In this document: positions 6,850-63,778 of the stretch, piece by piece
Numbering within the stretch: the first letter of the stretch is position 1
How the letters are laid out: each line of letters starts with the position of its first letter
Assembly (NCBI GenBank): GCA_026770705.1
Contig: JANJGN010000052.1
Span: 186,001 to 250,000 of the forward strand
DNA length: 64,000 nucleotides
Direction of reading: 5' to 3'
Origin: Isurus oxyrinchus
Lineage: Eukaryota
Notes under the pieces: model-generated
Seen by the model: the letters and a program-made list of their open reading frames with translations, nothing else
The model's database searches: none
Told to the model about the DNA's origin: nothing
Position numbers and translations under genes: made by a program

Positions 6850-6863
6850 ATCACTCTCACACA

Positions 6864-6931
<68 letters not shown>

Positions 6932-35949: not shown

Positions 35950-36399
35950 GTAAGTAACAGAACAATTGGAATTCACTTCCACCACCAACACCATCCTTTG
36001 TTGATGTTGTGACTTTATAAAGACAGATTCCAATGATTGATGCCTTTGAAAGATTTCTACTGATTATTGAGATCTGGGTGTGAGGCTCAGGTCTGCTGTA
36101 CAGAACATCTTTCTAGCTCAAGGGATGAGGGAAGAGCAGGGACATGAGCTTTGGGGTGTCCTGAGGTGGTGAAAGGTGCTATAGAAATGCAAGTCCTTCA
36201 TTGATTTATTTTTTTAAAGCTTTTTAACTCTCTGCGGAGCACCTATCATCCCACAGAGAACCAAATTAGTCTGTGAAGACATTGTCTAAAAGCAGTTCTG
36301 ATCTCTTGAGAGCTGTCGGACAAGAGGTGAGGTCTCATTAACTCCTTTCTCTTTCACAGTTTAAGAGTCAGAAGCTAAAGGAATATCTGGGAGTGGACA

Positions 36400-36439
36400 A
36401 TGATCGGGAAATCTTACTTCCTCCTGTCACTTCTCCAAG
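36400..36439 (+). CDS. Gene C signal-peptide exon
   Basis: MIGKSYFLLSLLQ, phase 1 donor gtaata. Confidence 0.85.
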
Positions 36440-41769: not shown

Positions 41770-42147
41770 TTGGACTGTCACAAGAGTGGAAAGGTGACAG
41801 TCCCCGAGAGATGACAGCGCAGGAAGGTTCATGTGTACAGATTCCATGTCATTACAGTTACTCATCACATTTGGTAAAGAAAACACATGTCGGAATCTGG
41901 TATATGAGGAGGTACATACAGAACAAATGGTCTAAATGGTCTATAGCCTTTCACTCCAAGGATCACAGTCACGAGTTACCACGGTTCCACCATCGGACCC
42001 GGCTGTCTGGAGACCTGAAAGATGGCGACTGTTCCCTGATTATAAACAACATCAGACGGGAAGATGAAGGACCTTATTTTTTCAGAATAGAATTTGACAA
42101 TGGTCCGAGCCATAACTATTACCCTGAAACCCAGCTTCAGGTTTCTG
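41770..42147 (+). CDS. Gene C first V-set exon
   Basis: 378 bp, phase 1-1, open; GSCVQIPC..GIWYMRRYIQNKWSKW..PYFFRIE. Confidence 0.9.
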
Positions 42148-42384
42148 GTAAGTGCTGTGTTATAATTACTCAACAATTCACATCCAACACTCAATGGGAA
42201 ATAATAGTGTTTGATTTGCTTGTTTTTTGGCCGTGTTAACCAGCGTCACTATTTTTAATGATTTGTCTATTTCTGCTCCCAGATCCATGAGCTTATTGTG
42301 TGTGATTGAATCCACATCATAGCTGTAACATAAACCGAGCTGAGGGGTGATGACACTTCCCCCCTGAGTGAAGTGTCTCCTCCT

Positions 42385-44225
42385 CACTACACCTTTCACC
42401 CCTCACACTGTCCGTGTAAACCCCCGTCCCATCTCCAGCCTCTCTTTCCCCTCCAATGTCCTTGAACGTGTTTCCATCTCCCGAATCAGTCCCCATCTTT
42501 CCCGCAACTCCATGTTTGAATCCCTCCAATCAGGTTCCCACCCCAGCCACTATGCTGAAACAGCTCTTATCAAGGTCACAAATGGCATCCTGTGTGACTG
42601 TGACAAAGGTCAACTTTCCCTCCTCGTCCTTCTCGATCTGTCTGCAGCCTTTGACACGCTCGACGACACCATCCTCCTCCAACACCTCTCCACTGTCGTC
42701 CAGCTGGGTGGGACTGCTCTCCCCTGGCTCCATTCTTATCCATCTCATCGTAGCCAGAGAATCACTTGCAATGGCTTTGCAGCATCATCTGAACAGTGTT
42801 AGTTTTCACCTGTCCACTGAGGATCCCCAGCTCTACCTCACCACCACCTCTCTCGACTCCTCCACTGCTGCTAAATTATCAGGCTGCTTATCCGACATCC
42901 AGTACTGGATGGGCAGAAATTCCCTCCAATTAAATATTGGAAAGACTGAAGCCATTGTCTTCATTCCCCGCTCCAAACTCTGTTCCCTCGCTACCAACTC
43001 CATTCCTCTCCCTGGCTGCTCTCTGAGATTGAAGCCAATCTGTTCACAGCTTTGTTGTCCTATTTGATCCTGAGATGAGCTTCCGGCCTCATGTCTGCGC
43101 CCTCACTAACACCGTCTATTTCCACCTCCTTAACATCGCACGACATCACTCTGTCTCAGCTCATCTGCTGCTGAAACCCTCATCCACGCCTTCATTACCT
43201 CCAGACTCGACTGTTCCAACACACGCTCTACACTCCATAAACTTGAGGCCATTCAAAACTGCTGACCACGTCCTTACTCACACCAAGTCCCATTCCCTTA
43301 TCACCTGCTCTGCTCGATGACCGAGACTGGCTCCTGGTCAAGCAAAGTCTCAATGTCCAAATTTACATCTTTGTTTCCTCTCTATCCCTGTAATCTCCTC
43401 GTCCTCCTCCAGTACCTACAACCATCCCATTCTCTGTAACCTCTTGAAGTATCTACCGCTTCCCTATATCTGCAAATTGATCCTGCCCAACAAACCTACC
43501 AATCTCTGCAACCTCCTCCAGCCACTACAACCCTCCCTATTTCTGTAACTTCCTCCTGCCCCTAAAAGCTTCCCTATCTCTGTAGCCTGCTCCAGTCCCG
43601 ACAACTTTCCCTGCCCCTGTAACCTGCCCCAGTCACTACAACCCTCCCTACCTCTGCAAACTCCTCCAGACTCTACACTCTCCCAATCTCTCTTAACTTT
43701 TCCAGCCCCTACAACCCTCCCTATTTCTGTAACTTCCTCCTGCCCCTAAAAGCTTCCCTATCACTGTAGCCTGCTCCAGTCCCGACGACGTTCCCTACCT
43801 CTGTAACCTGCCCCAGTCACTACAACCTTCCTTCTCTCTGTAACCTCCTCCAGCCCCTCCAACCCTCTGAGGTCTCTGTGCTCATCCAATTCCAGCCTCT
43901 TGACCATCCGCCGATCCCATCACTACAACATCGGCGGCCGTGCCTTCAGCTGCCTGGGGCCCGAGCTCTGTAATACTCTCCCTCAACCCCTCTTCGTCCC
44001 TCTCTCTCACTCTCTCTATCTCTCTCTCTCTCTATCTCTATCTCTCTCTCTCTCCCTATCCATTTCATCCCTCTTTGAAGATTCTCCATAACACCGACCT
44101 CTTCTGGCCAGCTGTCGCTAATATCTCCACATGTGTCTGGGTGACATACTTTGTTTTATGAAGCTCCTGTGTAGCACCTTGGGGTGATTTGTCATGTTAA
44201 ATTTGTTGTGTAAATATAACTTGTT
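42385..44225 (+). mobile_element. L2-clade LINE fragment with internal low-complexity tandem stretch
   Basis: VLERV..LQSG..AETALIKVTNGIL.D.DKGQLSLLVLLDLSAAFDT; GGRAFS at the 3' end. Confidence 0.85.
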
Positions 44226-44764
44226 GCCCTTTGACCCTCGACCCCAGCTCGAGTCTTATTTTAGAGGGAATGTACAACCTCCTTAGATTTCTGACCAAAA
44301 TGTCATTTGATTATTTTTATTGAGCGAATGCCAAGCCCCGATACCGAGCGAGAGCCTCCTCATTTGCTGAGTTTAAGGTGATGAGTCAGCCCCTTAGTCC
44401 GTAGAGGGGATTCTCCTCGGTAATGTGCAGCCTTGTTTGTGTCTCTCCACAAGCGCATGAGGGGTTTGTACAGAGGCTGCAGCGCTGGAGGGGGTCTGCA
44501 CAGGGGTCCTGGCCTGTCCTGAGCCGGTTTTAGCAAGGACCACTCTGGCCTTGGCAGCTGAAAGCCAGCCATTGGACAGACGGGGCCTGTCACAAGGAGC
44601 CTGTTAGTCACTCCCCCCCGTGTCTCCTGTGCTCGGATCCAGACCATGTTGGCTGGTGGATCTGGCTCAGGAAGGGTCCTCCCCATGGGACCCCCAGATG
44701 GAAGGTGGGTCGAGCGGGTCATTCACTTGCATGTTTATTCTGCAGCTTTAATATTTTAAGAAGG

Positions 44765-45562
44765 TAAGAATGTAGGATCATAAGAAATAGGGACAGGAGC
44801 AGGCCATTCGGCCCCTCCAGCCTGCTCTCACTGATCTGGTTGTGGCCTTAACTCCATTTTCCTGCCTGTCCCCCAAATCCTTGACTCCCTTGTTGATCAA
44901 AAACCTGCCTCACTCAGCCTTGAGTCTATTCAATGGCACAGTCTCCACTGCTCTCTGGGGAAGAGAATTCCACAGGCTAGCGCCCCTCTGAGAGAGGAAA
45001 TTCCTCCTCATCTCAGACTTAAATGGGGGAGCCCTCATTCCGAAACTGTGCTCCCTGGTTCTAGATTCCCCCACGAGGGGGAAACATCCTCCCAGCATCC
45101 ACCCTGTCAAGCCCCCTCGGAATCGGATATGTTTCAATAAGGTCACCCCTCATTCTTCTAAACTCCAATGGATACAGGCCCAACCTGCTCAACATTTCCT
45201 CACAGGACAAACCCTTTAATCCCAGGAATCAGCCCAGTGAAGCTTCTCTGAACTGCCTGTACACAATGATCCTGTTACAATCTCACTACCGCCCTGTGCA
45301 GCTGTTGCAAGACTTACCTCCTCTTAAACTCCATCTCTTCACAATAAAGGCCAACATTCCACTTGCCTTCCTCATTCCGTGTTGTTCCTGAATGCTGACT
45401 TTCTGTGATTCATGTACAAGGACACCCAGATCCCTCTGTACTGCATTCTGCATCCTGTCTCCTTTTAAATAATATTCTGCTTTTCTATTCTTCCTGCCAA
45501 AATAATTTGTTGCCATTCTCCTCAGTATTGACCATCCCCCCAATTCAGCCACATCTGCAAAT
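44765..45562 (-). mobile_element. CR1 LINE fragment (antisense)
   Basis: VQRDLGVLVHESQKVS..FPLVGESRTREHS..SLWNSLPQRAVE. Confidence 0.88.
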
Positions 45563-45621
45563 ATCGGGTTCAGTGGATCCATAAAACATCCAGAGTTAAA
45601 TATTGATATTTCTCTCCCCAG

Positions 45622-45990
45622 TTGAACCCTCACAAGAGTGGAAAGGTGACACTCCACGAGAGGTGACAGCGCAGGAAGGTTCGCGTGTACAGATTCCATG
45701 TCATTACAGTTATCCATCGTGTCTGGAAAACCAACCGCGAGGTGGAGTCTGGTTTAATAATGAGAAACAGATTCCCTGGGCTCCCATTGCCTTTCACTCC
45801 CAGGATCACAGTCACGAGTTACCACGGTTCCACCAACGGACCCGGCTGTCTGGAGACCTGAAAGATGGCGACTGTTCCCTGATTATAAACAACATCACAC
45901 GGGAAGATGCAGGACCTTATTTTTTCAGAATAGAATTTGACAACAGTAATAGTTCCAGCTACTATCCTGCAACCCAGCTTCACATTTCTG
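45622..45990 (+). CDS. Gene C second V-set exon
   Basis: 369 bp, phase 1-1, open; GSRVQIPCHYSYPSC..PYFFRIEFDNSNSSSYYP. Confidence 0.9.
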
Positions 45991-46718
45991 GTAAGTGCTG
46001 TGTTATAATTACTCAACAATTCACATTCAACTCTCAATGGGAAATAACGCAAACTGTGACATTTACATATTAACACAAAACACAGCTTATTATAACAGAC
46101 CGTCTGATTCTCAATAACCTGGTGATAGCTTCCAGTTCAGTCCTAAAGCAACCTCTAATACTCACTTTAATATCAATGATTAAATGTATTGACTGTGTCC
46201 ATCAATGTTATCAGGTTATCCACTCGCGTCGTTCTCTCTAATCCTGTCTCGAAGTCTGACATATCGACAAAAGAAAGATTCACATTTCTATGGAGCCTTT
46301 CACCACCTCAATATGTACCAAGTCACTTCACAGCCAATGAGCTGATTCCTGAATTGTAGTTACTGTTGTAATGTGAGAAACACAGCAGCCAATTTGCGCA
46401 CAGCAATCTCCTTCCAATTGCAAAGTACTAAATGGCCCAGATCGCTGAGTGAATGATGAGGTAGTGCACTCCAAACTCTGGTCTGCTCCTCCACCCTCAC
46501 CCACTATTATCAGTTCAAGTGTCTCGGAGTGAACGTGTATTAAGCTGAGAGACAGAAACACCAAAGTCTCAAAGCAGGAAATTCTCTCCTGATCGTTGTA
46601 ACCTCTCAGTTCTGATATCATCCTTGTAAAAGTGCTTTCTCGTGTGGGACTGTGGTTTCTATTTGAACTGATGCTTCACGTTATATTTCTCTAAAAGGAT
46701 CCATTCTCTGTCTGTTAG

Positions 46719-47015
46719 ATTTCACAGATAAACCCACGATATTCCCTGCTGAAATTATTGCAGGAAAGCGTGTGGATGTAAGCTGCACCTTCAACACAAC
46801 GTGCAATAGAACAGCAGCACCTGTCTTAACCTGGGACACTCCCACTGACGTACCTGGATCAGTCTCAAACACTGTAACTCAGCATGGTGTCACTCTGACC
46901 TATACTTCTGTTCTGACCCTGATCCCATCACTCAAACACCACGGACACACTCTCAGCTGCAGAGTGAGATATCCATCTGTTTCATCGGAGCGGACCCTCG
47001 TACTAACTGTGCAAG
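46719..47015 (+). CDS. Gene C C2-set exon
   Basis: 297 bp, phase 1-1, paralog of 25039-25335. Confidence 0.9.
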
Positions 47016-47340
47016 GTAAGTACGGACACCCTTCATTCTACATCAGCACTCCCTCAGCGCTGACCCTCTGACAGTGCAGCCCGTTCTCAGTATCCACATT
47101 CTCATGCCTCTCAAAGTGCTTCACAGTCCATAGAAGTTAATTGATCTTTATTTGATTGTTGCTGAATGAAGAGACAAGCTGTTTAAACTTTAAATCTCAC
47201 ACACATGATTTTCCATGGCAACACATCCACCTATCAGAGACCACTTGCCAACCAATCAGCACTCTCTTCCCTTTAAATATAAATTGTTGTTCACTCTCTG
47301 TTGGTAAACATGCGATCTGTCTTGTTGAGTCCTGCCCTGA

Positions 47341-47491
47341 TATCTGAATATCACAATGAACAGAACAAGTTCCAACAATGAGCTGTGGTTGGTGATTCCT
47401 CACGTTACATCCAGGGACACTGGAGACTATCAGTGTTTGGCAGAGAATGAACATGGAGCAGTGGAGGGATTCATAACCATCACTGTGGAAT
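47341..47491 (+). pseudogene. Gene C second C2 exon remnant (5' half and acceptor lost)
   Basis: Only MNRTSSNNELW..ITITVE|gtgagt remains; 5' part replaced by unrelated sequence 47155-47340. Confidence 0.85.
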
Positions 47492-49174
47492 GTGAGTGTA
47501 CACAGATTTCATCATCTGTCTCAGATTGAAACATGACACAAACACACACAAATATACAGACCTAAATAGACACCTGCAGATACACAATCCCTCGTATATG
47601 AGCACACACAAAGACACAAACAAACACACTAGCACAATACTCCCCAGTGGGTTACCTGACCTCCCTCAGTGCTGCACTGGAGAGTTGACCTGGATTCTGA
47701 GATTTTTGTTCCCTTTCATGTTTATGGAAGAATATGGAAATTGCAAAGTCTATTACAGACACTCAGATGCATAGAGACACTCACAGATACTCTCTGTCTC
47801 TCCAACTCTCTATCCTCCTTTAAGAAGCTTCCTGAAACCTAACCCTTTGACCAGTCAATTGTCCCAACTCCTCCTTACGTGAATCCGTGTGAAATTTTGT
47901 TTGAGTATCTGAGAGTAAGAGAGAGGTGGAGAGGTTTAGGAAGGGAATCCCTGTTGGTGAAAAGCTTACATCATGTTCTCACTTTTCCACTGCCCGTATT
48001 TCACCTGATGTCCAATGTCCTTGTTTATAAAAGGGATTGCCTATGTAAACGTCACGCTGTAGTTACACTGTACCACCAGTGGTGCACAGTAGAACTTAAC
48101 CCTTGCATCTCTCAGCTTTTCAAGCAAATCCACTTCCCAATTTGCCTCACAAGCTGTGAGTTCATCGGAATTAAATTATTTCTAAAACGGTAGATTTGAT
48201 GCCATTTTATTGAAAACTTCCTCAGTGCCTCCCTGAAGGGTTTACACTCTCTGGGAAGCAGGAATAGGCTGGATGTTGGGGAGTTCATCTTTTCCCAGAG
48301 AGCAGTGATCCTCGGGAATGTGCTGTCTGTGGGTGTGGTGGTTGCTGTTGCTCTGTTGCCTTCAAGAGGGATCTGGAGTGGTTACTGACTGGGGGAGAGA
48401 TCATGGAAACGGAGAATGATACAGCACAGGAGGAGGCCATTCAGCCCATTGTGCCTGTGCCAGGTCTTTCAATGTTCTATCCCATCAGATCCACTAACCA
48501 CCACTCCACTTTGCCCCCATCTTCCTCCTTCAAGTGTTTATCCAATTCCCCTTTTGAAAGTTCCTATTGAATCTGCTTCCACCGCCCTTTCAGGCAGCAC
48601 CTTCCAGATCACAACAACTCGCTCTGTCAAAACAAATTCTCCTCATCTCCCCCTCCAGTTCGTCAATCCGTGTCCCTCTGGTTACTGACCCTCCTGCCCC
48701 GTAAATACATCGATACTGTTCACCTCAACCACTCCCAGTGGGAGCGAGTTCCACATTCTCCCCTCTCTCTGGGTAAAGATTGGAACTGTTTATTAAGCGG
48801 GGGGTGTAAGTCCATGGGGGATTCCATCTCGATCCTGCCCGATTCGCACACGCGTCCGAGATGGATTTCCATCCTTCACAAAACGTTTCCAGAATTTTCT
48901 ACAGCACAATCCTGTACACAGCGATGGAGAGAAACATTGGACAGGGAGTCCAACAGCACAATGATCCATTCTCACCAATGTTCCACGCTAAGGGGAAAGT
49001 TCCGATTGTCCACTCTTAGAGTGTTTACAGTGAAAACATTCATTCCACATTGAGTCCCAGTGGATGGGTCAATATTACAGCAAATGTTGCAGTGATATGA
49101 AGCTTGATTGTTCAGCCAGAGTGAGAGATTGAAAGCGGAGAGTCAGTGATGATTTCTTTCTGTGTGTTCTCTAG

Positions 49175-49314
49175 ACAGTGGAGGAGAGATTCTGCACGTG
49201 ATCCTGATCCTGGGAATACGAGCTGTGATATTCCTTGTGGCTGTGGCTATCACTATCGCTGGAGTCTGTGTCTGGGAGGAACAAACAGTGAAAGGAAGTC
49301 GACAGACTGTTTGA
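49175..49314 (+). CDS. Gene C terminal exon: TM with intramembrane Arg and short Tyr-free tail (activating type)
   Basis: ttctttctgtgtgttctctag acceptor, phase 1; SGGEILHVILILGI-R-AVIFLVAVAITIAGVCVWEEQTVKGSRQTV*. Confidence 0.8.
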
Positions 49315-49334
49315 AGCATTGTACAGCAACAATC

Positions 49335-49950
49335 TCATCATGGAACAGAAGAACGGCATTTGGCCCATCGACTCCATGCTGTCTCTCTGTAGAGCAATCC
49401 AGTCAGTTCCATTCCCCCACTCTATCCCTGTATCTCTTCAAGTTTATTTCCCCTCAAGTGTCCATCCAATTTCCTTTTGAATTCGTTCATCGTCTCCGCT
49501 TCCACCATCCTCGTAGGCAGCGAATTCCAGCTCATTACCACTTGCTGTGTAAAAAAGTTCCTCCTCACATCCCCCCTCTGCCCAAAACCTTCAATCTGTG
49601 TCCCCCAGTCCTTGTACAATCAGCTAATGGCAACAGCTTCTCTTTGTCTACCGTTATCTAAACCCATCATCATCTTGTACACCTCGATCAGATCCCCCCT
49701 CAATCTCCTTTGCTCCAAGGAGAACAACCCCAGCTTCTCCAACCCAACCTTGTAGCTAAAATCCCTCATCCCTGGACCCATTCTGCTCAATCTCCTCCCC
49801 ACCCTCTCAAGGACCCTCACTTCCTTCCCAAAGTGAGGAGACCAGAACTGGACACAATACTCTAGTTGTGACCTAACCAGAGCTTTATAAATGTTCAGCA
49901 TAACCTCCCTGTGTTTGTTCTCAATCCCTCGATTTATGAAAAGCTTATTC
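49335..49950 (-). mobile_element. CR1 LINE fragment (antisense)
   Basis: EVMLNIYKALVRSQLEYCVQFWSPH..GLFSLEQRRLRGDLIEVYK. Confidence 0.9.
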
Positions 49951-50659
49951 TTTCCATCAGCACAAACAGCAATTTCCAAGCGGACTCCCATCAGCAGACA
50001 GAGTGCAATGAAACATCGGCATGCCTGCTTCTTAATGTACGGAGAGAAACCTGGAACGAGAGATTCTCCTTCTTCTCCTCAGCAAGCTGAAACTTTTCCT
50101 TATACCTGGTGCTCCCCAGTCCTGCTGTGTGGACACATCATAACCACGGCATTGTCTGGCTGTGTGCAGCCAACATGGTCGAATAGGAATGAACAGAAAT
50201 GTGACATTGCTAAACTCTGTTCTCTGATTGGAATGTGCTTTCTGAATGCTGCACCTTTTTAATGCTGCGATAGATTGTAGGAGGCATTTGGGTTATGAAT
50301 AAAATTACATTGATTAACTCAAGTGATTAAAATGCTCAGCCTGTTCTGTAGATATTTATAGATTAAAATTCTTATTTTGCAGCCAAATTCTTGGCTCAAA
50401 GACATTACTTCATGTTGTCACATTTTCTCCATCATATGAATTCCATTGCCCATCTTTATAATAGAAATTTCCAATGTAAACATGTCACATTGTAGTTGCA
50501 CACTCCTGCCAGTGGTGGTGCCATTCCAAAGCTGTCTTGCTGCACTGACACAGTGAGAATTATTCTTGACTTGTACATGATGTTGTTGTTACACAGACAT
50601 CAGGCGGAATCTTGGGCAGTGCCTAGAATGCACTTAGGACATTGCGGACCACAATCAGA

Positions 50660-51770
50660 ACTGACAGTGCAGCGTTTCCTCAGTGCTGACCCTCCGTCAG
50701 TGCAGCGCTCCCTCATTACTGTCCCTCTGACAGTGCTGCACAACCTCATTATTGACCCTTTTCAAGTGCAGCACCCCGTCAGCACTAACCTTCTGACAGT
50801 GCAGCATTCCCTCATGGCTGACAATCTGACAGTGCAGCACTCCCTCAGTACTCACCCACCCACAGTACAGCACTCCCTCAGTACTGATTCTCTGACACTG
50901 TATCCCTCCCTCACTACTGACCTTCCGACAGTTCAGCACTCCCATGGTACAGACTCTCTGACAGTGCAGCACTCCCTCAGTACTCAACCTCCCACAGTAC
51001 AGCACTCCCTCAGTACTGATTCTCTGACACTGTATCCCTCCCTCACTACTGACCTTCCGACAGTTCAGCACTCCCGTGGTACAGACTCTCTGACAGTGCA
51101 GCACTCCCTCAGTACTCAACCTCCCACAGTGCAGCACTCTATCAGTACTCCCACTGTGCTGCGCAAGTTGTTTCAATCAAGATTGGTGCCCAAAGAGGGA
51201 GGTTTCATTGCTACATCATTGAAATCAGTGAAAATTATTTTTAGGCTTACGGGAACAAGACTTAGTTCCTCAAATCCTTTCTTTTGCAATAACACACAGT
51301 ACAAAAATCTCTGTTTAAATAAATTCCAGTTAAACTTTGCCATGAAAGGATATCTGCTCTTACTCCTCTCTACCTCAGTATTAACCATCCCACAGTCCGG
51401 CACCCCCTCAATACTGAGCCTCCGACTGTGTGGAACTCACTCAGTACAGACACGCTGACTGTTCAGCACTCCCACATTACTGACCATCTGATAGTGCAGC
51501 ACTCCCTCATTACTGACCCTCTGACAGTGCAGCACTCCCACATTACTGACCCTCTGACAGTGCAGCACTCCCTCACTACTGTCCCTCCTACATTGCAGCA
51601 CTCCCTCATTACTGAACCTCTGACAATGCAGCACTCCCACATTGCTCACCCTCTGATATTGCAGCACCCCCACATTACTGACCCTCTGCTAGTGCAGCAC
51701 TACCTCAGTACTGACCCTCCCACAGTGCAGCACTCCCACAGTACTGTCCCACTGACAGTGCAGCACTCTC
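50660..51770 (+). repeat. 33-bp minisatellite arrays (about 50660-51150 and 51380-51770)
   Basis: Degenerate tandem units with a 132-bp higher-order duplication near 50830-51110. Confidence 0.88.
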
Positions 51771-51997
51771 TCCGTAATGATAACAGGGATCGTTGAAATG
51801 AATCATAAGGCCAGAGACCTGTATTGGGAACTCTTATCGCCTGAGTTTCAGCCTCCGAGGTGAGGGGGAGGAGTCTAATCCCACGGAGCCAATGGAGAAG
51901 CTTCATGACTATAGATGCCCATATATGAGCTGACAGATCATCAGATGGTAAACGTTTTGCTGAGAGCACAAAACATCCTCGATCTTCTCACTGGTTA

Positions 51998-52140
51998 CCC
52001 ACTTCCTCATTTTGTCTCACAGTGACACATCAACCCTTTCTAATTAAACACACAGAGGGAGCAGCACAGGAAGAGGTCATTCAGCTCAAGCAGAGCGGGT
52101 GGGCAGTTCCTCTCCAGACGAGCAGTCGGACGGGTCCTGG
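51998..52140 (+). promoter_or_regulatory. Gene D promoter/exon-1 module with PU.1-like site
   Basis: CACTTCCTCATTTT; donor GTAAGT at 52141. Confidence 0.55.
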
Positions 52141-52590
52141 GTAAGTAACGGAACGATTGGAATTCACTTCCATGACCAACACCGTCCTTTGTTGATGTTG
52201 TGACTTTATAAAGACAGATTCCAATGATTCATGCATTTGAAAGATTTCTACTGATTATTGAGATCAGGGTGTGAGGCTCAAGTCTGTTGTACAGAACATC
52301 TTTCTAGCTCAAGGGATGAGGGAAGTGCAGAGACATGAGCTTTGGGACGTCTTGAGGTGGTGAAAGGTGCAATAGAAATGCAAATCCTTCAATGTTTTTC
52401 TTTCTTAAAGCCTTGTAACTCTCTGCAGAGTACCTATCATCCCACAGAGAATTAAATTAGTCTGTCAAGACATTGTCCAAAAGCAGTTCTGATCTCTTGA
52501 GAGCTGTCGGACAAGAGGTGAGGTCTATTTAACTCCTTTCTCTTTCAGAGTTTGAGAGTCAGAAGCTAATGAAATATCTGGGAGTGGACA

Positions 52591-52630
52591 ATGATCGGGA
52601 AATCTTACTTCCTCCTGTCACTTCTCCAAG
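52591..52630 (+). CDS. Gene D signal-peptide exon
   Basis: MIGKSYFLLSLLQ, phase 1. Confidence 0.85.
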
Positions 52631-53699
52631 GTAATATCATCGTCAGCTTGGACAGATTTATGGTTAATAGTCTTTGTAAAAGATCATTCTTATTGAGCTG
52701 TGATTGGGAAACGATTCAGCAGTGAGCCAGTGTACAAACACACACCAAGTCCCATTCACCCATCACCCCTGTGCTCACTGATATACACTGACTCCATGTC
52801 TGACAGCAGAATTGGAGGAGAGCAGAGATCTCAGAGGGTTTTAGGGTTGGAGGAGGTTACACAGATAGAGAGTGTAGAGGGGGGATGGTGGGGTAAGAAA
52901 TCGATGATGAGAATTTGAAATTTGAGTCATTGCTGTACTGGGAGTCAGTGTAGGTCAGTGAGTGACAGGGAAGCGATCGGCTGAATAGAGAATCAGGGAT
53001 AAAAACTGGGGGTTGAGGTCTATCCCGATGCTCGGACACGGATAACAATGCCCTGAAATTTTGTGTCTTTTGCTGATCTAAGTCAGGACTTCCCATGAAG
53101 ACAACACAGCAGCTCCTAGAATAGACAGGCTGTTCAGTGTCACACTTCCTGTCCATTCTCACCTTGCTAGATACTTCAATAAGGGAGCAAGATAACTGAA
53201 AGAGAGAAGGAAGGTAAAGCTGTCTGTGTGTAAAACTGTCAAATATTCTGAGTTATCATAATTGTCTCTGACCTGCTGCAGAGTTTAAATTTCACAGAAT
53301 ATTAGCACTTTGCAGCTCAGAGAGAGACCATTGACTCACTGCCTGAAAGGGCGGTGGAAGCAGATTCAACAGGAACTTTCAGAAGGGGAACTGGATAAAT
53401 ACTTGAAGGGGACATTTTGCAGGGCTGTGGAGGAGAGAGCAGAGGTGAGAGTGGGACTAATTGGACAGATCTTTCAAAGGCCCAGCACAGGCTCGATGGG
53501 CCAAATGGCATCCTTCTGTTCCAGATCATTCTACAATCTGACAAATTAAGCCCCACATCAATAACTCTTCAGGCTCCTGCTGCAGGGATGGATCTTTGAC
53601 AAGGACAGGGAACAAAAGGTTTCTGGTATCATTTTCATAATTCTTGACAATTACATAAATGTATAGATCTGTTGAATATTTAAGTCTCTAAAGCATAGA

Positions 53700-56600
53700 G
53701 GTAATCTGCTGTTACGCCCAGGTCTTGTGGTGGGAACTTTGTCTGGAGGTGTCTTTACTTGCTCACATTGATCTGTGGGATTGTCATTCTTCGATGTTGC
53801 CCCTTGTTTCAATTGGCATTTTACCCTTGATGCAACTGGGGAGGCTTTAAACTAACATGGCAGGGGATGGGATCCCAAGAAGAGGTTGACCAAAGGGAGA
53901 TGCACAGCCAAAATTAGAAGAGAGAGCAAATGAACCTGGAAGGCAGAGAAATTATTGGCAGAAGATAGAATGGCAAAGTTGGATTCAATTATTTTAATGC
54001 AAGGAGTCTGACAGACTTGCATTCTCCTGCAGGTGTGATGTTCCAGCTCCCTTGAAATTGCCAATATTGTTGAAACTTGCTGCATATTTCAATGTTATGT
54101 CATGAACTGAGGTGATGGAGTAGTTTCTGAGACTGGGACAGACATAAATCCTTTGGCTTTCGGCTGGTCCGGACAATCCTGGCAGTGGGTGGGGCCAGAA
54201 AATCCCACCCCTTGGGACATTTTCAGTTTATTTGATGCGCCCAGAGAGATCAATAAAGACCTCAATCCACAATTTATTGGCAAGCCACGTCAGGATATGT
54301 GTGAGAGGTAGAATATCGATCACCGCTCCTCGTCTCACCGTGCACATCATCGCCATTTCCTGGTTTGTCAGTCACCACATGTATATGTTCCTGATGGGAT
54401 AGTGGATGGTCATTCTTATTGCTTGAAGGTTCCCCGTTGTGTAGGGTTAGTTTGGATCAGCGCACGGCTCTCTGTAGCGGCATCAGCCTTTGCTCTAGTG
54501 CCCTGCCGCTGTCAATGGCCCTTTCTGCCACAAGCCTTGCAGGATTGGTGGAAAGCTGGGCATTTCCTTGGTGCTTGCAGAAGGCCACACCTTCCACACG
54601 TCTCACTAGGTCTGGATGTTCTAGTGAGTGTGTCAACAATTGATGTTGTACTGAGGACCTGTAAGCTTCGTTGACCTGCGAGGATCACTTCGTATTTATG
54701 TCCATCCTTGAGTAGCTCTTCAATGCTATAGGTTTTGGTCTTATCTAGCAGATCTTTCTGGAAGGCTTCCATGGGAGTGGATGTAATCACCAACTCAACA
54801 ACTGTGTCTGCAGGCTCTGTGTTTGAAATCACAGTGCGTACCCTTTTCTCTACATCGGCTGATGAAGTGGTCTATGGATTGTGTAAGCTGATGAAATGAC
54901 ATAAACTCTAGTTGATGAATATGAAGTTTAACCTGATTCTGAACCTGTCTTCCAATGTCGTCCATATCTATTGGGGATCCTTTCGCTCTTCTGCTGTTAA
55001 TTCTGACGTGTTCAGCCTGTGTAGACCTTCATTCCCAATCGCGAGGTGAATTTTTATGGGTGGCTCGTCTGGTTCAGTCACAGCTGAATCAGGAAACCAG
55101 AGCTCTGTACGCTGTTTAAACATTCTGAATTCAGATAGTCGGTCAGCTACATCCCAGTTCAAACTCGGGAATTTCGTGGACATTCTGACAATATTCCTTT
55201 GACCTTCCTTCTCCTACAGGATCTGGGATGAGTGTCGCTTTAGCCCCTTTCGTGCGCTTTTCCGAAGCTCCGCCCACGGAGACGGGTTGTGGCAGGAACA
55301 CACCACAGAGTAAAGGAGTCTTTGTTTTTTATTCAATTTGCTGTTCAGCAATCTCGAAGCCGCCCGTTATAATCACTAACTTCTCTGGGCTGATTTTTAT
55401 AACGGTTTTTGTGTGTTTGACTCTCCCTCGCTCACTATCGATCCAGCCCACACCCTGGTCACTCGCCTTCCCTGACTGAGCTAACCCGCTGCTGGTCCTG
55501 GCGATACACACTGTCCCACTCACTGACCTACAGGCCATGTGCTGTAATCTCACCACGAGGGATCCGTCTGCTCCCCAGCTCTTTACTTGTGCTCTGTCCC
55601 ATCACTGTGTCTTCAAAGGTTTCCTGAGCAGTCAGTACACTGCGATTTCAACCCTCTCTGATGCTGTGTCTCTGTTCTGGTCTGACCGAAGCGTCGAGGG
55701 TCGTCTCATGTCATGTAGCTCGATCTAAGGCTGTTCACCACATCATACCTGTACTGAATCTTGCTGCCAGAATGTTTGGCCACCGCTGATCACCATGTTG
55801 TGTTTTTATAATGATATAAAGGCACCAGCCACTGATACGGAATTGGGTAAATGCATTGTGGGTTCATTTATTTAGAACAGGGACATGAGAACAAGGATAG
55901 AAAGCTGGGAGACACCTGTGGCCAAACTGTGTGAGCTGTGTTCTGCTCACAGGCCAAAGTGAAACTTGGACTGGATGGTGTTACCATCTCAGCTGATGTT
56001 ACTACTGGGCAAGTCAGATCCCAGGGTGGAACTCAGCTTGATAGGTCCTAACTTTTATTTTTTATTTAGGAATGTGGAGTGCGGCTACTGAACAGAGTCA
56101 CAGGAATCATCTGATGACCTTCTAACAAAAGAATAAAACATTTATTAAACTAGGAAAGACTGATTATATTACATTACTCCTTCACCCAGACCTATACATT
56201 TACAGATTCATAAGTAGAATACAAGTTACAATAACTATCTTATACTCTCATGTTCACACTAAGTACACAGTTCATGCAAACCAATAGACGACCTGGTGTC
56301 AGGGACACCACATTCTGTAACCAAGTGATAGACCCCAATTGGAACAAATGCTATGGGTTTCAGCTCAACTGACTCCAGACACTTGTTTCACCATGAGGCA
56401 ACTGGTCTTACAAAACTGTATCTTTCACATGAGAGTTTCCAATCTCTACTCGTCAAGTGCTCTCTTTGGAATCTTCTCTAACATGACACTTTCACTCAGA
56501 GACCTTCCACACGGGTCCACTTCCACGATTTCAAACTCTCCTTCCCATGTTCCTGCCCCCTGGATCGCCACATGCATTCAGCCTTCCTTCTACGCGTTGT

Positions 56601-57297
56601 CTCTCCAATGCTCAGTCATGCCAATGGAACACCATGGCTTCACATGGTCATAGTAAGAAGACATCAACATTTGACTGTCTCCTATGATCTTCTGGCTTCT
56701 AATCAGCCTTTTTTGCTTTAGGTCTGTGTCCTTTTGCTTTTTCTCTTTTAGCTTGGATCCCTCCTCTGCTCCTCAATCTTATCTCGACTTAACAGGACCT
56801 TTTTCAGATTCCTGATCTTCTTTGGAGTAGAAGGTCTTCTTGGCTCTTTCTCCTGTTCCACTCGATAGTTTTGGCTTCTTCTTTACTTTGGGACTGACTA
56901 TCTGTCCCACTCCTTTGCTGCTTCTCCTGGCAACTCCTTTCAACAGAACTGAAAGCACATTTCTGTTTTTCTCTGTCTCTATGGGTCCGTCCCTCTGGAT
57001 CACTGTTGCTTAGCAATAGCACAGTTTCTTACACCTTGTGTTTGTTTTGACTTTCCTTCAAGAGACATCAAACCCCATTAGATTGCTAAACGAAAATGAA
57101 ACCAAAACTGAAGTTTCCCCCTTTCTTAACACACAAATACAGAAATCAAACTAAACTTGAACTTAAAGATAGACCTTAAACCCTAACACATACAAATACA
57201 CATAGAACTTACTTAAGCTATCCCCAGTTCTAAAATCACATGACACACTTCCCCTCGAGTGATGTCATGCTGCTGTCCCTGAAAGGCATATTACAAT
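53700..57297 (-). mobile_element. Degraded Gypsy (Mag-like) element, paralog of 37500-41144, retaining gag remnants
   Basis: FRMFKQRTELWF..IGNEG; zinc-knuckle CGRCG..CPAFHQSCKACGRKGH; same LTR/PBS junction near 55795. Confidence 0.75.
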
Positions 57298-57299
57298 AG

Positions 57300-58224
57300 T
57301 GTTATCACTTGGCAGGTGATGTGTGCCAGGCAGACCAAGTCCATGAGAGAAAGGTGGTCACACGATCATAATGATTTTGCAATTTGTATTTATTATGAGA
57401 TGTGTGCACTGAATTCAGAAGCAATAATTACACCAAGACCTTTAGAGATTTGAAAATTAAATTAAAATTCTTGCTCTCAAAATAAAAGCTTTCAAGCACA
57501 TACATAACTCTACAATTACCACTATAATAATTCTTAAAATTCCAAATTAACCTGACTCCCAGTTACACTCCCTTTAAGGCAACAGACTAAAAATAGATGT
57601 TAGATTTAAAACAACTCAGCAAGTTAACACAATACAATAGCAATACCCTGCACAGAGGAATTCCAAGTGGCTTTTCCCCAACTTCAGTTCTGTTGGATAG
57701 CAGGCTTGTGCACAAATGCTTGAGGTTTCATTAAGACTATATCACACACTCGTGTTAGATCTTACATGGCATTCTGACACATAGCCTTTCATTCTCCCTG
57801 ATAGATATATATTTCTCTCTTTGTAACATGAAAATTCTATTGTTCCAAATGTTTTTGAAACTGTCTCTTCCTCATAACAAATTCTTTTGTGGTGCCCATA
57901 TTGCCAGGAGCCTTTGAGAAAAATAAGCACATTCCTTAGTCTTGCTTATCTGGCTAGTTGTAAACAAGCTAAGATTCCTTTGAAATCCAACAACCCCTTC
58001 ATTGAAATAAAAATGCAAATTCTCTTCATACCTTCCATGCTAAGCAGCATCCATGTTTCCTCAATAGCATGTCAAGCACCTAGTTCCTTTTGATCATTTT
58101 AAACTTCCAATCTAATTAACTCCAAATGTATTTAAATCACATGCAGACCCATCATGCGTACCCCCATAAACCTACTTCACAATATACTATAAAATATTAT
58201 GAAAATTATTATACTTACATCACA
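57300..58224 (-). mobile_element. Solo LTR with 4-bp target-site duplication (ATAG)
   Basis: ATAG|TGTTATC...CATCACA|ATAG; homologous to 11935-12830. Confidence 0.82.
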
Positions 58225-58627
58225 ATAGGAACCACTGCCTTAGACACTGAGGATCTAGGACAGCTAGGCCAATTACTGATTCATGATGGTGATAATGGGG
58301 GAATTCTGAAGGCTCCAAATCCATTGTCCTACATTGTAAATCAGCAGTGAACTCACTTCAATCAGTGCGTCTTGTAGACACTGTGTTGGGTGGCAGACTG
58401 ACTTCACTAAATAGGTTCCTGAGGGCCATGAGCCAATGTAGAATGAACTTGTCCACTCCTGTGTCCAGAATTCTCTTCGATCTGTGGTAAAACCTTGGGG
58501 CATTCATTGTGTGACCTGTGGATTATCCAGACTGCAGCCACTGTGCCCCAGTGATGGAGGGGGTGGATATTGAGTATAGTGGATTGAGAAAACATTCAGA
58601 GTTAAATATTGATATTTCTCTCCGTAG

Positions 58628-59002
58628 TTGGACTATCACAAGTGTGGAAAGTCAACACTCCACGAGAGGTGACAGCGCAGGAAGGTTCGTGTGTACAGAT
58701 TCCATGTCATTACAGTTATCCATCATATTTAGTAGCGAGATCACCAGTCGGAATCTGGTATATGAGAAGGAATTGGGAAACATGGAATGAACGGTCTATA
58801 GCCTTTCACTCCAAGAATCACAATCGCAAGTTAACACGGTTCCACCATCGGACCCGGCTGTCTGGAGACCTGAAAGATGGTGACTGTTCCCTGATTATAA
58901 ACAATGTCAGATGGGAAGATGCAGGATATTATTTATTCAGAACAGATTTTGACAGCAGGAATAGATACAACGACCGTCCTGTAACCCAGCTTCACGTTTC
59001 TG
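58628..59002 (+). CDS. Gene D first V-set exon
   Basis: 375 bp, phase 1-1, open; GIWYMRRNWETWNER..DAGYYLFRTDFDSRNRYNDRP. Confidence 0.9.
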
Positions 59003-59239
59003 GTAAGTGCTGTGTTATAATTACTCAACAATTCACATCCAACACTCAATGGGAAATAATAGTGTTTGATTTGCTTGTTTTTTGGCCGTGTTAACCAGCG
59101 TCACTATTTTTAATGATTTGTCTATTTCTGCTCCCAGATCCATGAGCTTATTGTGTATGATTGAATCCACATCAAAGCTGTAACGTAAACCGAGCTGAGG
59201 GGTGATGACACCTCCCCCCTGAGTGAAGTGTCTCCTCCC

Positions 59240-60878
59240 CACTACACCTTCCACCCCTCACACTGTCCGTGTAAACCCCCGTCCCATCTCCAGCCTCTCT
59301 TTCCCCTGCAAAGTCCTTGAACGTGTTTCCATCTCCCGAATCCGTTCCCATCTTTCCCGGAACTCCATGTTTGAATCCCTCCAATCAGGTTCCCACCCCA
59401 GCCACTGTGCTGAAACAGCTCTTATCAAGGTCACAAATGGCATCCTGTGTGACTGTGACAAAGGTCAACTTTCCCTCCTCGTCCTTCTCGATCTGTCTGC
59501 AGCCTTTGACACGCTCGACCACACCATCCTCCTCCAACACCTCTCCACTGTCGTCCAGCTGGGTGGGACTGCTCTCCCCTGGCTCCATTCTTATCCATCT
59601 CATCGTAGCCAGAGAATCGCTTGCAATGGCTTTGCAGCATCATCTGAACAGTGTTAGTTTTCACCTGTCCACTGAGGATCCCCAGCTCTACCTCACCACC
59701 ACCGCTCTCGACTCCTCCACTGCTGCTAAATTATCAGGCTGCTTATCCGACATCCAGTACTGGATGGGCAGAAATTCCCTCCAATTAAATATTGGAAAGA
59801 CTGAAGCCATTGCCTTCATTCCCCACTCCAAACTCTGTTCCCTCGCTACCAACTCCATTCCTCTCCCTGGCAGGTCTCTGAGATTGAAGCCAATCTGTTC
59901 ACAGCTTTGTTGTCCCATTTGATCCTGAGATGAGCTTCCGGCCTCATATCTGCGCCCTCACTAACACCGTCTATTTCCACCTCCGTAACATCGCACGACA
60001 TCACCCTGTCTCAGCTCATCTGCTGCTGAAACCCTCATCCACGCCTTCATTACCTCCAGACTCGACTGTTCCAACACACGCTCTACACTCCATAAACTTG
60101 AGGCCCTCCAAAACTGCTGACCATGTCCTTACTCACACCAAGTCCCATTCCCTTATCACCCGCTCTGCTCGATGACCGAGACTGGCTCCTGGTCAAGCAA
60201 AGTCTCAATGTCACAATTTTCATCTTTGTTTCCTCACTATCTCCGTAATCTCCTCGTCCTCCTCCAGTACCTACAACCATCCCATTCTCTGTAACCTCTT
60301 CAAGCCTCTGCTGCTTCCCTATATCTGTAAAATCATCCTGCACAAAAAACCTACCAATCTCTGCAACCTCCTCCAGCCACTACAACCCTCCCTAGCTCTG
60401 CGAACTCCTCCATACCCTACACTCTCCCAATCTCTCTTAAATTTTCCAGCCTCTACAACCCTCCCTATCTCTGTAACTCCTCCAATCACTACAACCCTCC
60501 TTAACTCTGTAACCTCCTCCAGCCCCTCCAACCCTCTGAGGTCTCTGCTGTCCTCCAATTCCAGCCTCTTGACCATCCCCCGGTCCCATCACTCCAACAT
60601 CGGCGGCCGTGCCTTCAGCTGCCTGGGACCCGAGCTCTGTAATACCCTCCCTCAACCCCTCTCCGTCCCTCTCTCTCACTCTCTCTATCGCTCTGTCTCT
60701 CTCTCACTATCCATTTCATCCCTCTTTGAAGATTCTCCATAACACCGACCTCTTCTGGCCAGCTGTCGCTAATATCTCCACATGTGTCTGCGTGACATAC
60801 TTTGTTTTATGACGCTCCTGTGTAGCACCTTGGGGTGATTTGTCATGTTAAAGTTGTTGTGTAAATATAAGTTGTTGC
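59240..60878 (+). mobile_element. L2-clade LINE fragment (paralog of 42385-44225)
   Basis: Same RT remnant LLVLLDLSAAFDTLDH. Confidence 0.85.
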
Positions 60879-61416
60879 CCTTTGACCCTAGACCCCAGCT
60901 CGAGTCTTATTTTTGAGGGAATGTACAACCTCCTTAGATTTCTGACCAAAACGTCATTTGATTATTTTTATTGAGCGAATGCCAAGCCCCGATACCGAGC
61001 GAGAGCCTCCTCATTTGCTGAGTTTAAGGTGATGAGTCAGCCCCTTAGTCTGTAGAGGGGATTCTCCTCGGTAATGTGCAGCCTTGTTTGTGTCTCTCCA
61101 CAAGCGCATGAGGGGTTTGTACAGAGGCTGCAGCGCTGGAGGGGGTCTGCACAGGGGTCCTGGCCTGTCCTGAGCCGGTTTTAGCAAGGACCACTCTGGC
61201 CTTGGCAGCTGAAAGCCAGCCATTGGACAGACGGGGCCTGTCACAAGGAGCCTGTTAGTCACTCCCCCCAGTGTCTCCTGTGCTCAGATCTAGACCATGT
61301 TGGCTGGTGGATCTGGCTCAGGAAGGGTCCTCCCCATGGGACCCCCAGATGGAAGGTGGGTCGAGCGGGTCAGTCACTTGCATGTTTATTCTGCAGCTTT
61401 AATATTTTAAGATGGT

Positions 61417-62240
61417 AAGAATGTAGGAACATAAGAAATAGGGACAGGAGCAGGCCATTCGGCCCCTCCAGCCTGCTCTCACTGATCTGGTTGTGGCCTT
61501 AACTCCATTTTCCTGCCTGTCCCCCAAACCCTTGACTCCCTTGTCGATCAAAAACCTGCCTCACTCAGCCTTGAGTCTATTCAATGGCCCAGCCTCCACT
61601 GCTCTCTGGGGAAGAGAATTCCACAGGCTAGCGCCCCTCTGAGAGAGGAAATTCCTCCTCATCTCAGTCCTAAATGGGGGAGCCCTCATTCCGAAACTGT
61701 GCTCCCTGGTTCTAGATTCCACCATGAGGGGGAAACATCCTCCCAGCATCACCCTGTCAAGCCCCCTCGGAATCGGATATGTTTCAATAAGGTCACCCCT
61801 CATTCTTCTAAACTCCAATGGATACAGGCCCAACCTGCTCAACATTTCCTCACAGGACAAACCCCCTTCATCCCAGGAATCAGCCCAGTGAACCTCCTCT
61901 GAACTGCCTCCAATGCAGAGTCTATCCCTCCCTAAGTAATGAGACCAGAACTGTACACACTGCTCCTGATACAATCTCACCCTGTGCAGCTGTTGCAAGA
62001 CTTCCCTCCTTTTATACTCCATCCCTTTGCAATAAAGGCCAACATTCCACTTGCCTTCCTCATTCCGTGAATGCTTACTTTCTGTGATTCATGTGCAAGG
62101 ACACCCAGATCCCTCTGTACTGCATTCTGCAGCCTCTCTCCATTTAAATAATATCCTGTTTTTCTATTCTTCCTGCCAAAATAATTTGTTGTAGTCCTCC
62201 TCAGTATTGACCATCCCCCCAATTCAGCCTCATCTGTAAA
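61417..62240 (-). mobile_element. CR1 LINE fragment (paralog of 44765-45562)
   Basis: LYPLEFRRMRGDLIETY..SLWNSLPQRAVEAG. Confidence 0.88.
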
Positions 62241-62299
62241 TTTGAGTCTAGTGGATCCACAAACCATCCAGAGTTAAATATTGATATTTCTCTCCCCAG

Positions 62300-62668
62300 T
62301 TGGACTGTCACAAGAGTGGAAAGGTGACACTCCACGAGAGGTGACAGCGCAGGAAGGTTCGTGTGTACAGATTCCCTGTCATTACAGTTATCCATCGTGT
62401 CTGGAAAACCAACCGCGAGGTGGAGTCTGGTTTAATAATGAGAAACAGATTCCCTGGGCTGCCATTGCCTTTCACTCCAAGGATCACAGTCACGAGTTAC
62501 CACGGTTCCACCATCGGACCCGGCTGTCTGGAGACCTGAAAGATGGCGACTGTTCCCTGATTATAAACAACATCAGACGGGAAGATGCGGGACCTTATTT
62601 TTTCAGAATAGAATTTGACAATGGTCCGAGCCATAACTATTACCCTGTAACCCAGCTTCACGTTTCTG
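62300..62668 (+). CDS. Gene D second V-set exon
   Basis: 369 bp, phase 1-1, open; GSCVQIPCHYSYPSC..PYFFRIEFDNGPSHNYYP. Confidence 0.9.
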
Positions 62669-63481: not shown

Positions 63482-63778
63482 ATTTCACAGATAAACCCAC
63501 GATATTCCCTGCTGAAATTATAGCAGGAAAGTGTGTGGATGTAAGCTGCACCTTCAACACAACGTGCAATGGAACAGCAGCACCTGTCTTAACCTGGGAC
63601 ACTCCCACTGACGTACCTGGATCAGTCTCAAACACTGTAACTCAGCATGGTGTCACTCTGACCTATACTTCTGTTCTGACCCTGATCCCATCACTCAAAC
63701 ACCATGGACACACTCTCAGCTGCAGAGTGAGATATCCATCTGTTTCATCGGAGCGGACCCTCGTACTAACTGTGCAAG
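63482..63778 (+). CDS. Gene D C2-set exon
   Basis: 297 bp, phase 1-1; carries an extra Cys (AGKCVDVSC). Confidence 0.9.

What the first reader, a model, noticed from the sequence alone, without database searches (positions are those of the whole stretch)
41770..62668. Two tandem V-set exons per gene (leader-V-V-C2), both keeping the sialic-acid-binding Arg
Seen: genes C and D each have two open phase 1-1 V exons with no C2 exon or leader recognisable between them. Known: nearly all Siglecs have one V domain; primate Siglec-12 is the two-V exception. Inference: either bivalent V-V receptors or alternative V cassettes spliced onto a shared constant region, giving combinatorial ligand specificity.
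Basis: partly seen in the sequence, partly recalled or inferred. Interest (0 to 1): 0.75.

Follow-up and report, generated by a model that had tools for sequence, protein, structure and literature searches.

The report
Shark Siglec-like receptors with stacked V domains
This shark genome carries hundreds of sugar-sensing immune-receptor genes, about half of those examined with two to seven binding-domain exons in a row, and the inner domains carry an extra cysteine that likely staples each one to the domain before it, which would make multivalent receptors rather than interchangeable cassettes.

Summary
Observation confirmed. Genes C and D each read leader-V1-V2-C2. All four V exons are open, phase 1-1, with canonical splice sites and the F-strand Arg. 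C and D are one duplicated block, so V-V arose once here.

The layout is common. The genome has at least 657 V, 485 C2a and 424 leader exons. In the contiguous 780 kb around the window, 17 of 28 units have 2-5 V; one elsewhere has 7. RefSeq models of 7 sharks and 2 rays show it too, as do frog, turtle, lynx and teleost models.

New clue: 38 of 39 open inner V exons carry a B-C-loop Cys, against 1 of 40 leader-adjacent ones. It sits where CD33 C169 takes the V-domain Cys. I infer one disulfide-chained V1-V2-C2 protein with a variable outer V and a conserved inner V. C and D end in a TM-Arg, activating-type exon.

RNA confirms the family is spliced, but no V1-V2 joint was among the 15 of 294 joints shown. 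New variant of a known kind.

The parts
35849..35950 (+). Gene C 5' untranslated exon (5' end approximate)
   Evidence: blastn homolog in every unit, GTAAGT donor
36359..36439 (+). Gene C leader exon, ATG at 36400, phase 1 donor
   Evidence: same leader starts RefSeq shark models
41770..42147 (+). Gene C V1 exon (class a, long basic/aromatic C-C' loop; Arg codon 42084; no B-C Cys)
45622..45990 (+). Gene C V2 exon (inner type: xP start, B-C-loop Cys codon 45720, Arg codon 45927; A'/B Cys lost)
46719..47015 (+). Gene C first C2 exon (C2a) with the partner Cys equivalent to CD33 C169
47339..47498 (+). 5'-truncated remnant of a second C2 exon (C2b), probably skipped
   Evidence: Carcharodon RefSeq models join C2a directly to the TM exon
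49175..49314 (+). Gene C transmembrane exon with Arg in the membrane and a short tail (activating type)
52040..52141 (+). Gene D 5' untranslated exon (5' end approximate)
52550..52630 (+). Gene D leader exon, ATG at 52591
   Evidence: donor used in RNA contigs of the family
58628..59002 (+). Gene D V1 exon (class a; Arg codon 58939; no B-C Cys)
62300..62668 (+). Gene D V2 exon (inner type: B-C-loop Cys codon 62398, A'/B Cys kept, Arg codon 62605)
63482..63778 (+). Gene D C2a exon; its C2b remnant and TM-Arg exon lie just beyond the window (G000:C52:250102-250261 and 251373-251508)
24270..24638 (+). Single V exon of neighbouring gene B, the in-window control: no B-C Cys

Best explanation
Genes C and D are two copies of a V-V-C2 member of a very large shark cluster of Siglec-like receptor genes, and both V exons are likely spliced into one chain in which the inner V is predicted to be disulfide-linked to the outer V. 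Steps: (1) Shown: leader, V1, V2, C2a and a TM-Arg exon lie in order and in frame under one leader. (2) Shown: inner V exons almost always carry a B-C-loop Cys seven residues after the B-strand Cys; leader-adjacent V exons almost never do. (3) Established: in CD33 and MAG the V-domain A'/B Cys bonds to a Cys of the next domain (C36-C169, C37-C165). (4) Inferred: the inner V plays the part of domain 2, giving V1-V2 and V2-C2a bonds, so any number of V can be stacked by unequal crossover. (5) Inferred: the conserved, Arg-keeping inner V binds sialic acid, while the fast-diverging outer V, which often lacks the Arg, varies the ligand. (6) Inferred: C and D signal through an ITAM adaptor via the TM Arg, paired with ITIM-bearing neighbours. 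V1 skipping may add minor isoforms.
For: B-C Cys in 38 of 39 open later V versus 1 of 40 open leader-adjacent V in 1.45 Mb of this genome; 31 of 32 versus 1 of 35 on distinct sequences. In RefSeq shark models it is 35 of 42 versus 4 of 58. An xP start replaces the signal-peptide remnant in 26 of 39 later V and 0 of 40 leader-adjacent V. The shark C2a Cys aligns with CD33 C169 (PMC6669322 passage; MAG PMC5150538 passage). First V exons stay open: 25 of 28. A substitution-only neutral simulation expects about 4 of 19 open, 16 observed, P=0.008. Class-a first V form a 99-supported clade (28 rows, 26 leader-adjacent) shared with Carcharodon and Cetorhinus. Adjacent V-V occurs in 27 of 82 named homologs. 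Arg is kept in 38 of 39 later V but 15 of 25 first V. C-V1 and D-V1 exons are 83.7% identical against 97.8% for the next 1 kb of intron. A predicted V1-V2 model of the Cetorhinus homolog P0014 superposes over both domains of CD33 at rmsd 5.3-5.9 A over 205-208 residues, against about 14-15 A for Fab chains.
Against: No leader-V1 or V1-V2 joint is among the 15 joints listed from four contig runs; 279 more were not shown. The listed splice joints are leader-to-V2-type and V2-type-to-C2a. The paralogs are not independent, so the Fisher P of 3e-20 overstates the case, and the tree is poorly resolved. The rule has exceptions: 7 of 42 later V in shark models lack the Cys, and only 3 of 12 in rays have it at that place. 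Four Carcharodon models put a Cys-bearing V directly after the leader. C-V2 has lost its own A'/B Cys. Pairwise dN/dS of class-a V1 is 0.91 (framework 0.75, loops 1.01), which alone does not separate selection from drift. With branch lengths halved, the simulation gives P=0.084. The model gave no Cys-Cys distance and its pTM was 0.48. RefSeq models are predictions, and their read support was not seen.
Confidence: 0.65

Rival explanations
1. The V exons are alternative cassettes: each mRNA mostly carries one V or a subset of V exons on a shared C2-TM, giving combinatorial specificity.
For: Carcharodon RefSeq gene XP_041037226-30 has L-V1-V2-C2 and an isoform shorter by exactly 123 residues that lacks V1. 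S. canicula XP_038670868-74 isoforms share leader, last V, C2 and tail but differ in first and middle V. The strongest exon joints in RNA contigs are leader-to-V2-type (3 of 4 runs) and V2-type-to-C2a (3 of 4 runs). All V exons are 3n, so any subset is in frame.
Against: The leader-to-V2-type joint cannot be assigned: single-V genes and many first V exons share that 5' end, and the shorter sides are only 43-78 letters, short of the B-C Cys codon. In the Carcharodon gene V1 and V2 share their first 32 residues, so the skipped isoform may be mis-mapping. A leader-V2 product would expose an unpaired Cys. Position-specific Cys and xP starts are not expected of interchangeable cassettes. In the 15 Cetorhinus LOC144671591 isoforms read, the 7-V block was the same throughout.
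Confidence: 0.2
2. V1 is a left-over exon from unequal crossover between neighbours; it is skipped or tolerated and has no function.
For: The cluster is full of debris: orphan leaders and UTR exons, truncated C2b exons, 13 of 25 single-V units broken. dN/dS near 0.9 for class-a V1. 10 of 25 first V lack the Arg. No V1 joint was listed.
Against: 24 of 28 multi-V units are intact from leader to C2a, more than single-V units (12 of 25). First V splice sites are intact. The V1 class is shared with two other shark genera. The neutral simulation gives P=0.008. Amino-acid change is concentrated in the ligand-side loops (pN 0.25 versus 0.06 in framework), though synonymous change is raised there too.
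Confidence: 0.1
3. The arrays and the copy number are inflated by assembly errors or uncollapsed haplotypes.
For: Paralogs are 92-99% identical and spread over many unplaced contigs. Some middle V exons are identical in protein.
Against: V1 and V2 in the window differ by about a third of their residues (67-69% identity), which no mis-assembly produces. The same layouts occur in independent assemblies of 9 elasmobranch species. Haplotype duplication could at most halve the count.
Confidence: 0.05

Closest known systems
CD33-related Siglecs, MAG (Siglec-4) and sialoadhesin (Siglec-1)
   Same: V-set plus C2-set ectodomain, F-strand Arg, B-E intra-sheet Cys pair, V-to-C2 Cys pair, ITIM/ITSM or charged-TM tails. 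Best PDB sequence matches are sialoadhesin, Siglec-5, MAG and CD33; fold match to the sialoadhesin V domain Z 18.7, rmsd 1.6.
   Different: One to seven V exons per gene, an extra B-C-loop Cys in inner V, and roughly 500 gene units against about 15 Siglecs in humans (human count recalled).
Primate Siglec-12 (two V-set domains)
   Same: L-V-V-C2 layout (PMC6288428 passages; Rhinopithecus Siglec-12 P0218).
   Different: P0218's second V has no Cys at the B-C-loop position (read by eye). Human Siglec-XII loses binding through R122C in the first V, whereas here the inner V keeps the Arg best. About 30% identity; orthology was not tested, and RefSeq names such as 'Siglec 12' on shark models are best-hit labels.
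Paired activating and inhibitory Siglecs (Siglec-5/14, Siglec-11/16)
   Same: Near-identical ectodomains with ITIM or charged-TM tails in one cluster (PMC4042635 and PMC5701461, search listing only).
   Different: Scale: at least 194 TM-Arg exons. The Arg lies near the outer end of the membrane segment, recalled as the FcR-gamma-type position (LILRA, NKp46) rather than the DAP12-type one.
Dscam-type or clustered-protocadherin variable exons (recalled)
   Same: Tandem near-identical exons upstream of a shared constant region.
   Different: Only 2-7 exons per gene, no promoter or leader per V, nothing found that forces one-of-n choice, and the V exons are specialised by position.

Membership tests
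Siglec family | N-terminal V-set domain of Siglec type | tested here: met
   Pfam V-set and Ig_CD22 above cut-off for all four exons; PDB matches
Siglec family | Essential Arg on the F strand | tested here: met
   All four window V exons; family-wide 38 of 39 later V but 15 of 25 first V
Siglec family | Intra-sheet B-E cysteine pair, no F-strand Cys | tested here: met
   Cys at exon residues 26 and 84-87, Phe at the usual F-strand Cys place; by sequence only
Siglec family | V-to-domain-2 cysteine pair (CD33 C36-C169) | tested here: met
   A'/B Cys in C-V1, D-V1 and D-V2, lost in C-V2; C2a partner Cys in 51 of 52 open C2a exons; alignment to CD33
Siglec family | Aromatic residues on the A and G strands of the binding site | tested here: inconclusive
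   A-strand Trp in all four; G-strand position is His, Ser, Tyr, His, with the register taken from the Siglec-5 alignment
Siglec family | C2-set domains, one TM segment, ITIM or charged TM residue | tested here: met
   C2-set_2; TM-Arg exon in C and D, ITIM exon in neighbours
Siglec family | Binds sialic acid | not testable with these tools
   Needs a glycan array or Arg mutants
Siglec-12 ortholog | Common descent of the V-V pair with mammalian SIGLEC12 | not tested
   No tree with mammalian rows was built; shark V1 and V2 are far closer to each other (60-89%) than to P0218 (30%), which points to independent origin
Mutually exclusive variable-exon loci (Dscam, clustered protocadherins) | Own promoter or leader per variable exon | tested here: not met
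   No UTR or leader exon between consecutive V exons
Mutually exclusive variable-exon loci (Dscam, clustered protocadherins) | One-of-n choice in transcripts | tested here: inconclusive
   RNA contigs could not be assigned to loci; RefSeq lists both inclusion and skipping

The most novel reading that the evidence does not exclude
Sharks run a germline innate repertoire of several hundred paired Siglec-like receptors built like beads on a string: a hypervariable, often Arg-less outer V for foreign ligands, stapled by disulfides to up to six conserved sialic-acid-binding inner V domains that set avidity and reach, with V number changed by unequal crossover and further mixed by splicing.
Probability: 0.3. 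Interest if true: 0.8.

Novelty: new variant of a known kind. Interest (0 to 1): 0.6.

Why it matters
Siglecs are taught as receptors with one ligand-binding V domain and about 15 genes (recalled). Here an early-branching jawed vertebrate has about 500 gene units, many with stacked V domains, and a sequence feature that suggests how a V domain can be made to serve as an inner domain. This gives direct tests: whether an inner V still binds sialic acid, whether stacking raises avidity, and what the variable outer V recognises. It also bears on how self-glycan sensing and paired activating and inhibitory receptors evolved beside shark adaptive immunity. Multi-V models already sit in RefSeq under best-hit names. 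My paper searches listed no paper describing the cluster or the position-specific Cys, but the library lacks most subscription journals.

Tried and rejected
RNA: 4 of 23 listed runs were laid on gene D only (51950-64000) at 90% likeness. All are contigs, RNA by guess, from two coded organisms and three studies. Only 15 of 294 joints were printed, none touching V1, so this neither shows nor excludes V1 inclusion. A V1-class position had summed contig depth 1530 in X3 against 162 and 405 for flanking intron contigs; the tool says contig depth cannot rank parts of a gene, so I do not count it.

A search for transcript-derived proteins spanning a V1-V2 junction gave only 4 NCBI models. dN/dS did not discriminate. 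Foldseek against PDB returned mostly scFv chains with rmsd about 16 A and was uninformative. The careful tree did not finish; the quick tree leaves 90 of 182 inner branches open, so I draw no order of events from it. No complex prediction was run, because V-V pairs could pass by likeness to antibody Fv. Earlier-findings look-ups returned nothing. The first automatic gene split merged two pairs of units and was replaced.

Rows dropped before counts: V hits under 85% length (3 of 101) and 4 V exons without a leader upstream; Cys, Arg and xP counts use open exons only. In one search, 21 domains with no recognisable leader (3 with the Cys), plus truncated or unparsed domains, which were not counted. 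Stretches outside C52:1-780000 were partly chosen because they showed V arrays, so the 28 of 53 multi-V figure is biased upward; the contiguous figure is 17 of 28. Supplements of papers were not read.
Full report
Setting. The window is G000:C52:186001-250000 in a 4.98 Gb assembly. Its exons are closest to models from lamniform sharks. It holds the end of one Siglec-like gene, a single-V gene (B), orphan UTR and leader exons, and genes C and D.

Observation. The four V exons are at 41770-42147, 45622-45990, 58628-59002 and 62300-62668. Each is open, a multiple of three, phase 1-1, and has AG and GTAAGT sites. Each scores as Pfam V-set and Ig_CD22. C-V1 matches sialoadhesin, Siglec-5, MAG and CD33 best, with the F-strand Arg in register; the other three have the Arg in the same motif. 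Leaders end at 36439 and 52630, and none lies between V1 and V2. The V1-V2 introns hold LINE-like fragments (my reading of the ORFs). C and D are one duplicated block, with the intron after V1 97.8% identical, so the window shows one origin of V-V. Both genes continue to a C2a exon, a truncated C2b remnant and a TM exon with an Arg and a short tail. Carcharodon RefSeq models P0111 and P0115 have the same L-V-V-C2a-TM layout.

Scale. Exact 26-base motifs give 657 V, 424 leader, 485 C2a and 194 TM-Arg exons genome-wide, with 0 hits for the reversed controls. These motifs match 84 of 98 V and 54 of 57 C2a exons in my census, which scales to about 770 V and 510 C2a exons; uncollapsed haplotypes could inflate both. 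I annotated 1.45 Mb. Of 53 units with a leader and C2a, 25 have one V, 23 two, 2 three, and one each four, five and seven. Part of this sample was picked for its arrays; in the contiguous 780 kb the figure is 17 multi-V of 28. From leader to C2a, 24 of 28 multi-V units are intact against 12 of 25 single-V units. Of units whose first TM exon is the Arg type, 11 of 12 multi-V are intact and 0 of 12 single-V.

Other species. Of 82 named homologs, 27 have adjacent V domains, from 7 sharks and 2 rays, with up to 7 V. More distant V-V or V-V-V models come from frogs (Xenopus, Bufo, Pelobates, Pelodytes, Leptobrachium, Hyperolius), turtles, geckos, lynx, tree shrew and teleosts, beside a primate Siglec-12. 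All are gene predictions. Siglec-12 is therefore the characterised two-V case (PMC6288428, passages) but not the only annotated one.

Position-specific features. Inner and outer V exons differ. A Cys seven residues after the B-strand Cys is present in 38 of 39 open later V and 1 of 40 open leader-adjacent V; the one exception sits behind a broken leader. On distinct sequences it is 31 of 32 against 1 of 35. At least 232 exons in the genome carry this motif. In RefSeq shark models it is 35 of 42 against 4 of 58, and in rays 3 of 12 against 0 of 6; the other ray inner domains have a Cys after the C-strand Trp instead. The signal-peptide remnant at the exon start becomes xPSQ in 26 of 39 later V and in none of 40 leader-adjacent V. 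The Arg is kept in 38 of 39 later V but only 15 of 25 first V, where 8 have Thr and 2 Ser. Of 25 open first V exons, 21 belong to a class with a long basic and aromatic C-C' loop, which forms a 99-supported group with Carcharodon and Cetorhinus domains.

Mechanism. In CD33 the V-domain C36 bonds to C169 of the C2 domain (PMC6669322, passage; PMC7426717, passage). In MAG it is C37-C165, which limits inter-domain flexibility (PMC5150538, passages). The shark C2a Cys aligns with CD33 C169, six residues after the B-strand Cys. The inner-V Cys lies in the same B-C loop, seven residues after it. Every open first V keeps the A'/B Cys (25 of 25), which would be unpaired in a V-V chain without this partner. 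I infer V1-V2 and V2-C2a disulfides. This predicts inclusion of both exons, because a leader-V2 product would expose a free Cys. An AlphaFold model of the Cetorhinus V-V homolog P0014 has both V domains mostly at pLDDT 72-92, with the linker near 62. It aligns over both domains of CD33, Siglec-5 and Siglec-10 at rmsd 5.3-6.1 A, MAG at 10 A and Fab chains at 14-15 A. That fits a Siglec-like stack but is loose, and no bond distance was returned. By eye, the non-shark V-V models, including primate Siglec-12, lack a Cys at this position, so this looks like a shark solution. The split into a variable outer V and a sialic-acid-binding inner V, and signalling through an ITAM adaptor, are inferences from sequence and recalled receptor biology.

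Is V1 alive? V2 has no leader, so any transcript from the gene's promoter passes through V1; the open question is inclusion. 25 of 28 first V are open. A neutral, substitution-only simulation on the tree of 19 distinct class-a exons expects about 4 open against 16 seen (P=0.008; P=0.084 with branches halved). C-V1 and D-V1 are 83.7% identical, beside 97.8% in the following intron and 86.5% in the preceding 200 bases, which suggests fast change or exon exchange. dN/dS is 0.91 for class-a V1, 0.59 for later V and 0.41 for single V, which does not decide the matter.

Transcripts. Four contig runs laid on gene D show GT-AG joints from the leader to a V2-type exon (X3, X4, X6) and from a V2-type exon to C2a (X1, X3, X6), so the family is expressed and spliced. 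No V1 joint is among the 15 shown of 294. The leader-to-V2-type joint cannot be told from single-V paralogs. RefSeq lists both inclusion and V1 skipping for one Carcharodon gene, whose V1 and V2 share their first 32 residues, and V-swapped isoforms for one S. canicula gene. In 15 of 20 isoforms read for a Cetorhinus gene the 7-V block did not vary. Cassette use therefore stays possible and unproven.

Literature. Searches for shark or chondrichthyan Siglecs, their expansion or tandem V domains listed nothing on this cluster. The whale shark paper mentions Siglecs once (PMC8455134, passages), and PMC13262535 does not cover it (passages). Subscription papers are mostly absent from the library, so I cannot say it is not in print.

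Verdict. The more notable finding is the cluster of several hundred paired Siglec-like genes with variable V number and inner V domains that appear built for stacking. It is a new variant of a known kind; interest 0.6.

Noticed in passing
window 852-3629 (+), partial second copy at 1-302: Open 926-codon frame with reverse-transcriptase and C-terminal GIY-YIG-like motifs, read by eye as an intact-looking Penelope-like retroelement inside an intron of gene A.
   Followed up: no
window 5488-8709; G000:C52:180311-194709 and 689002-697604: The C2b exon is also tandemly repeated, up to 8-9 copies per gene, so stalk length varies as well as V number.
   Followed up: partly
census, G000 C52, C71, C150: All 12 single-V units with the TM-Arg exon are broken, while 11 of 12 multi-V TM-Arg units are intact; activating receptors may survive mainly in multi-V form.
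   Followed up: partly
window 33725-34308 and 30288-30389: Orphan UTR and leader exons with no V. RNA contigs in X3 join a leader donor to a UTR exon (52628 back to 52054), suggesting orphan leaders splice into the next gene.
   Followed up: no
window 59932-59985: A LINE-like stretch in the V1-V2 intron of D, with a GT after it, appears by eye to encode the N-terminus of Carcharodon RefSeq model P0110, which is spliced to an inner V; a cryptic exon or an internal start is possible. The GT is absent in C.
   Followed up: no
G000:C52:313752, 385662, 727324, 745349 and others: First V exons that replace the Arg by Thr have a Lys two residues further on the same strand, which might compensate.
   Followed up: no
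P0150 (Xenopus), P0195, P0225 (frogs), P0199 (Scleropages): Later V domains of frog multi-V models have an extra Cys near their N-terminus and a teleost one has a Cys four residues after the B-strand Cys; possibly other solutions to the same unpaired-Cys problem.
   Followed up: no
window 63482-63778: Gene D C2a has a further Cys near its start, also seen in Mustelus and Cetorhinus models; it could allow dimers.
   Followed up: no
window 10780-11215, 25530-26415, 27300-27860, 50660-51780: A 33-base minisatellite family recurs between and within genes and may promote unequal crossover.
   Followed up: no
G000:C25:36073498 and C34:15138188-15163851: A few V motif hits lie on large contigs outside the main cluster.
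   Followed up: no
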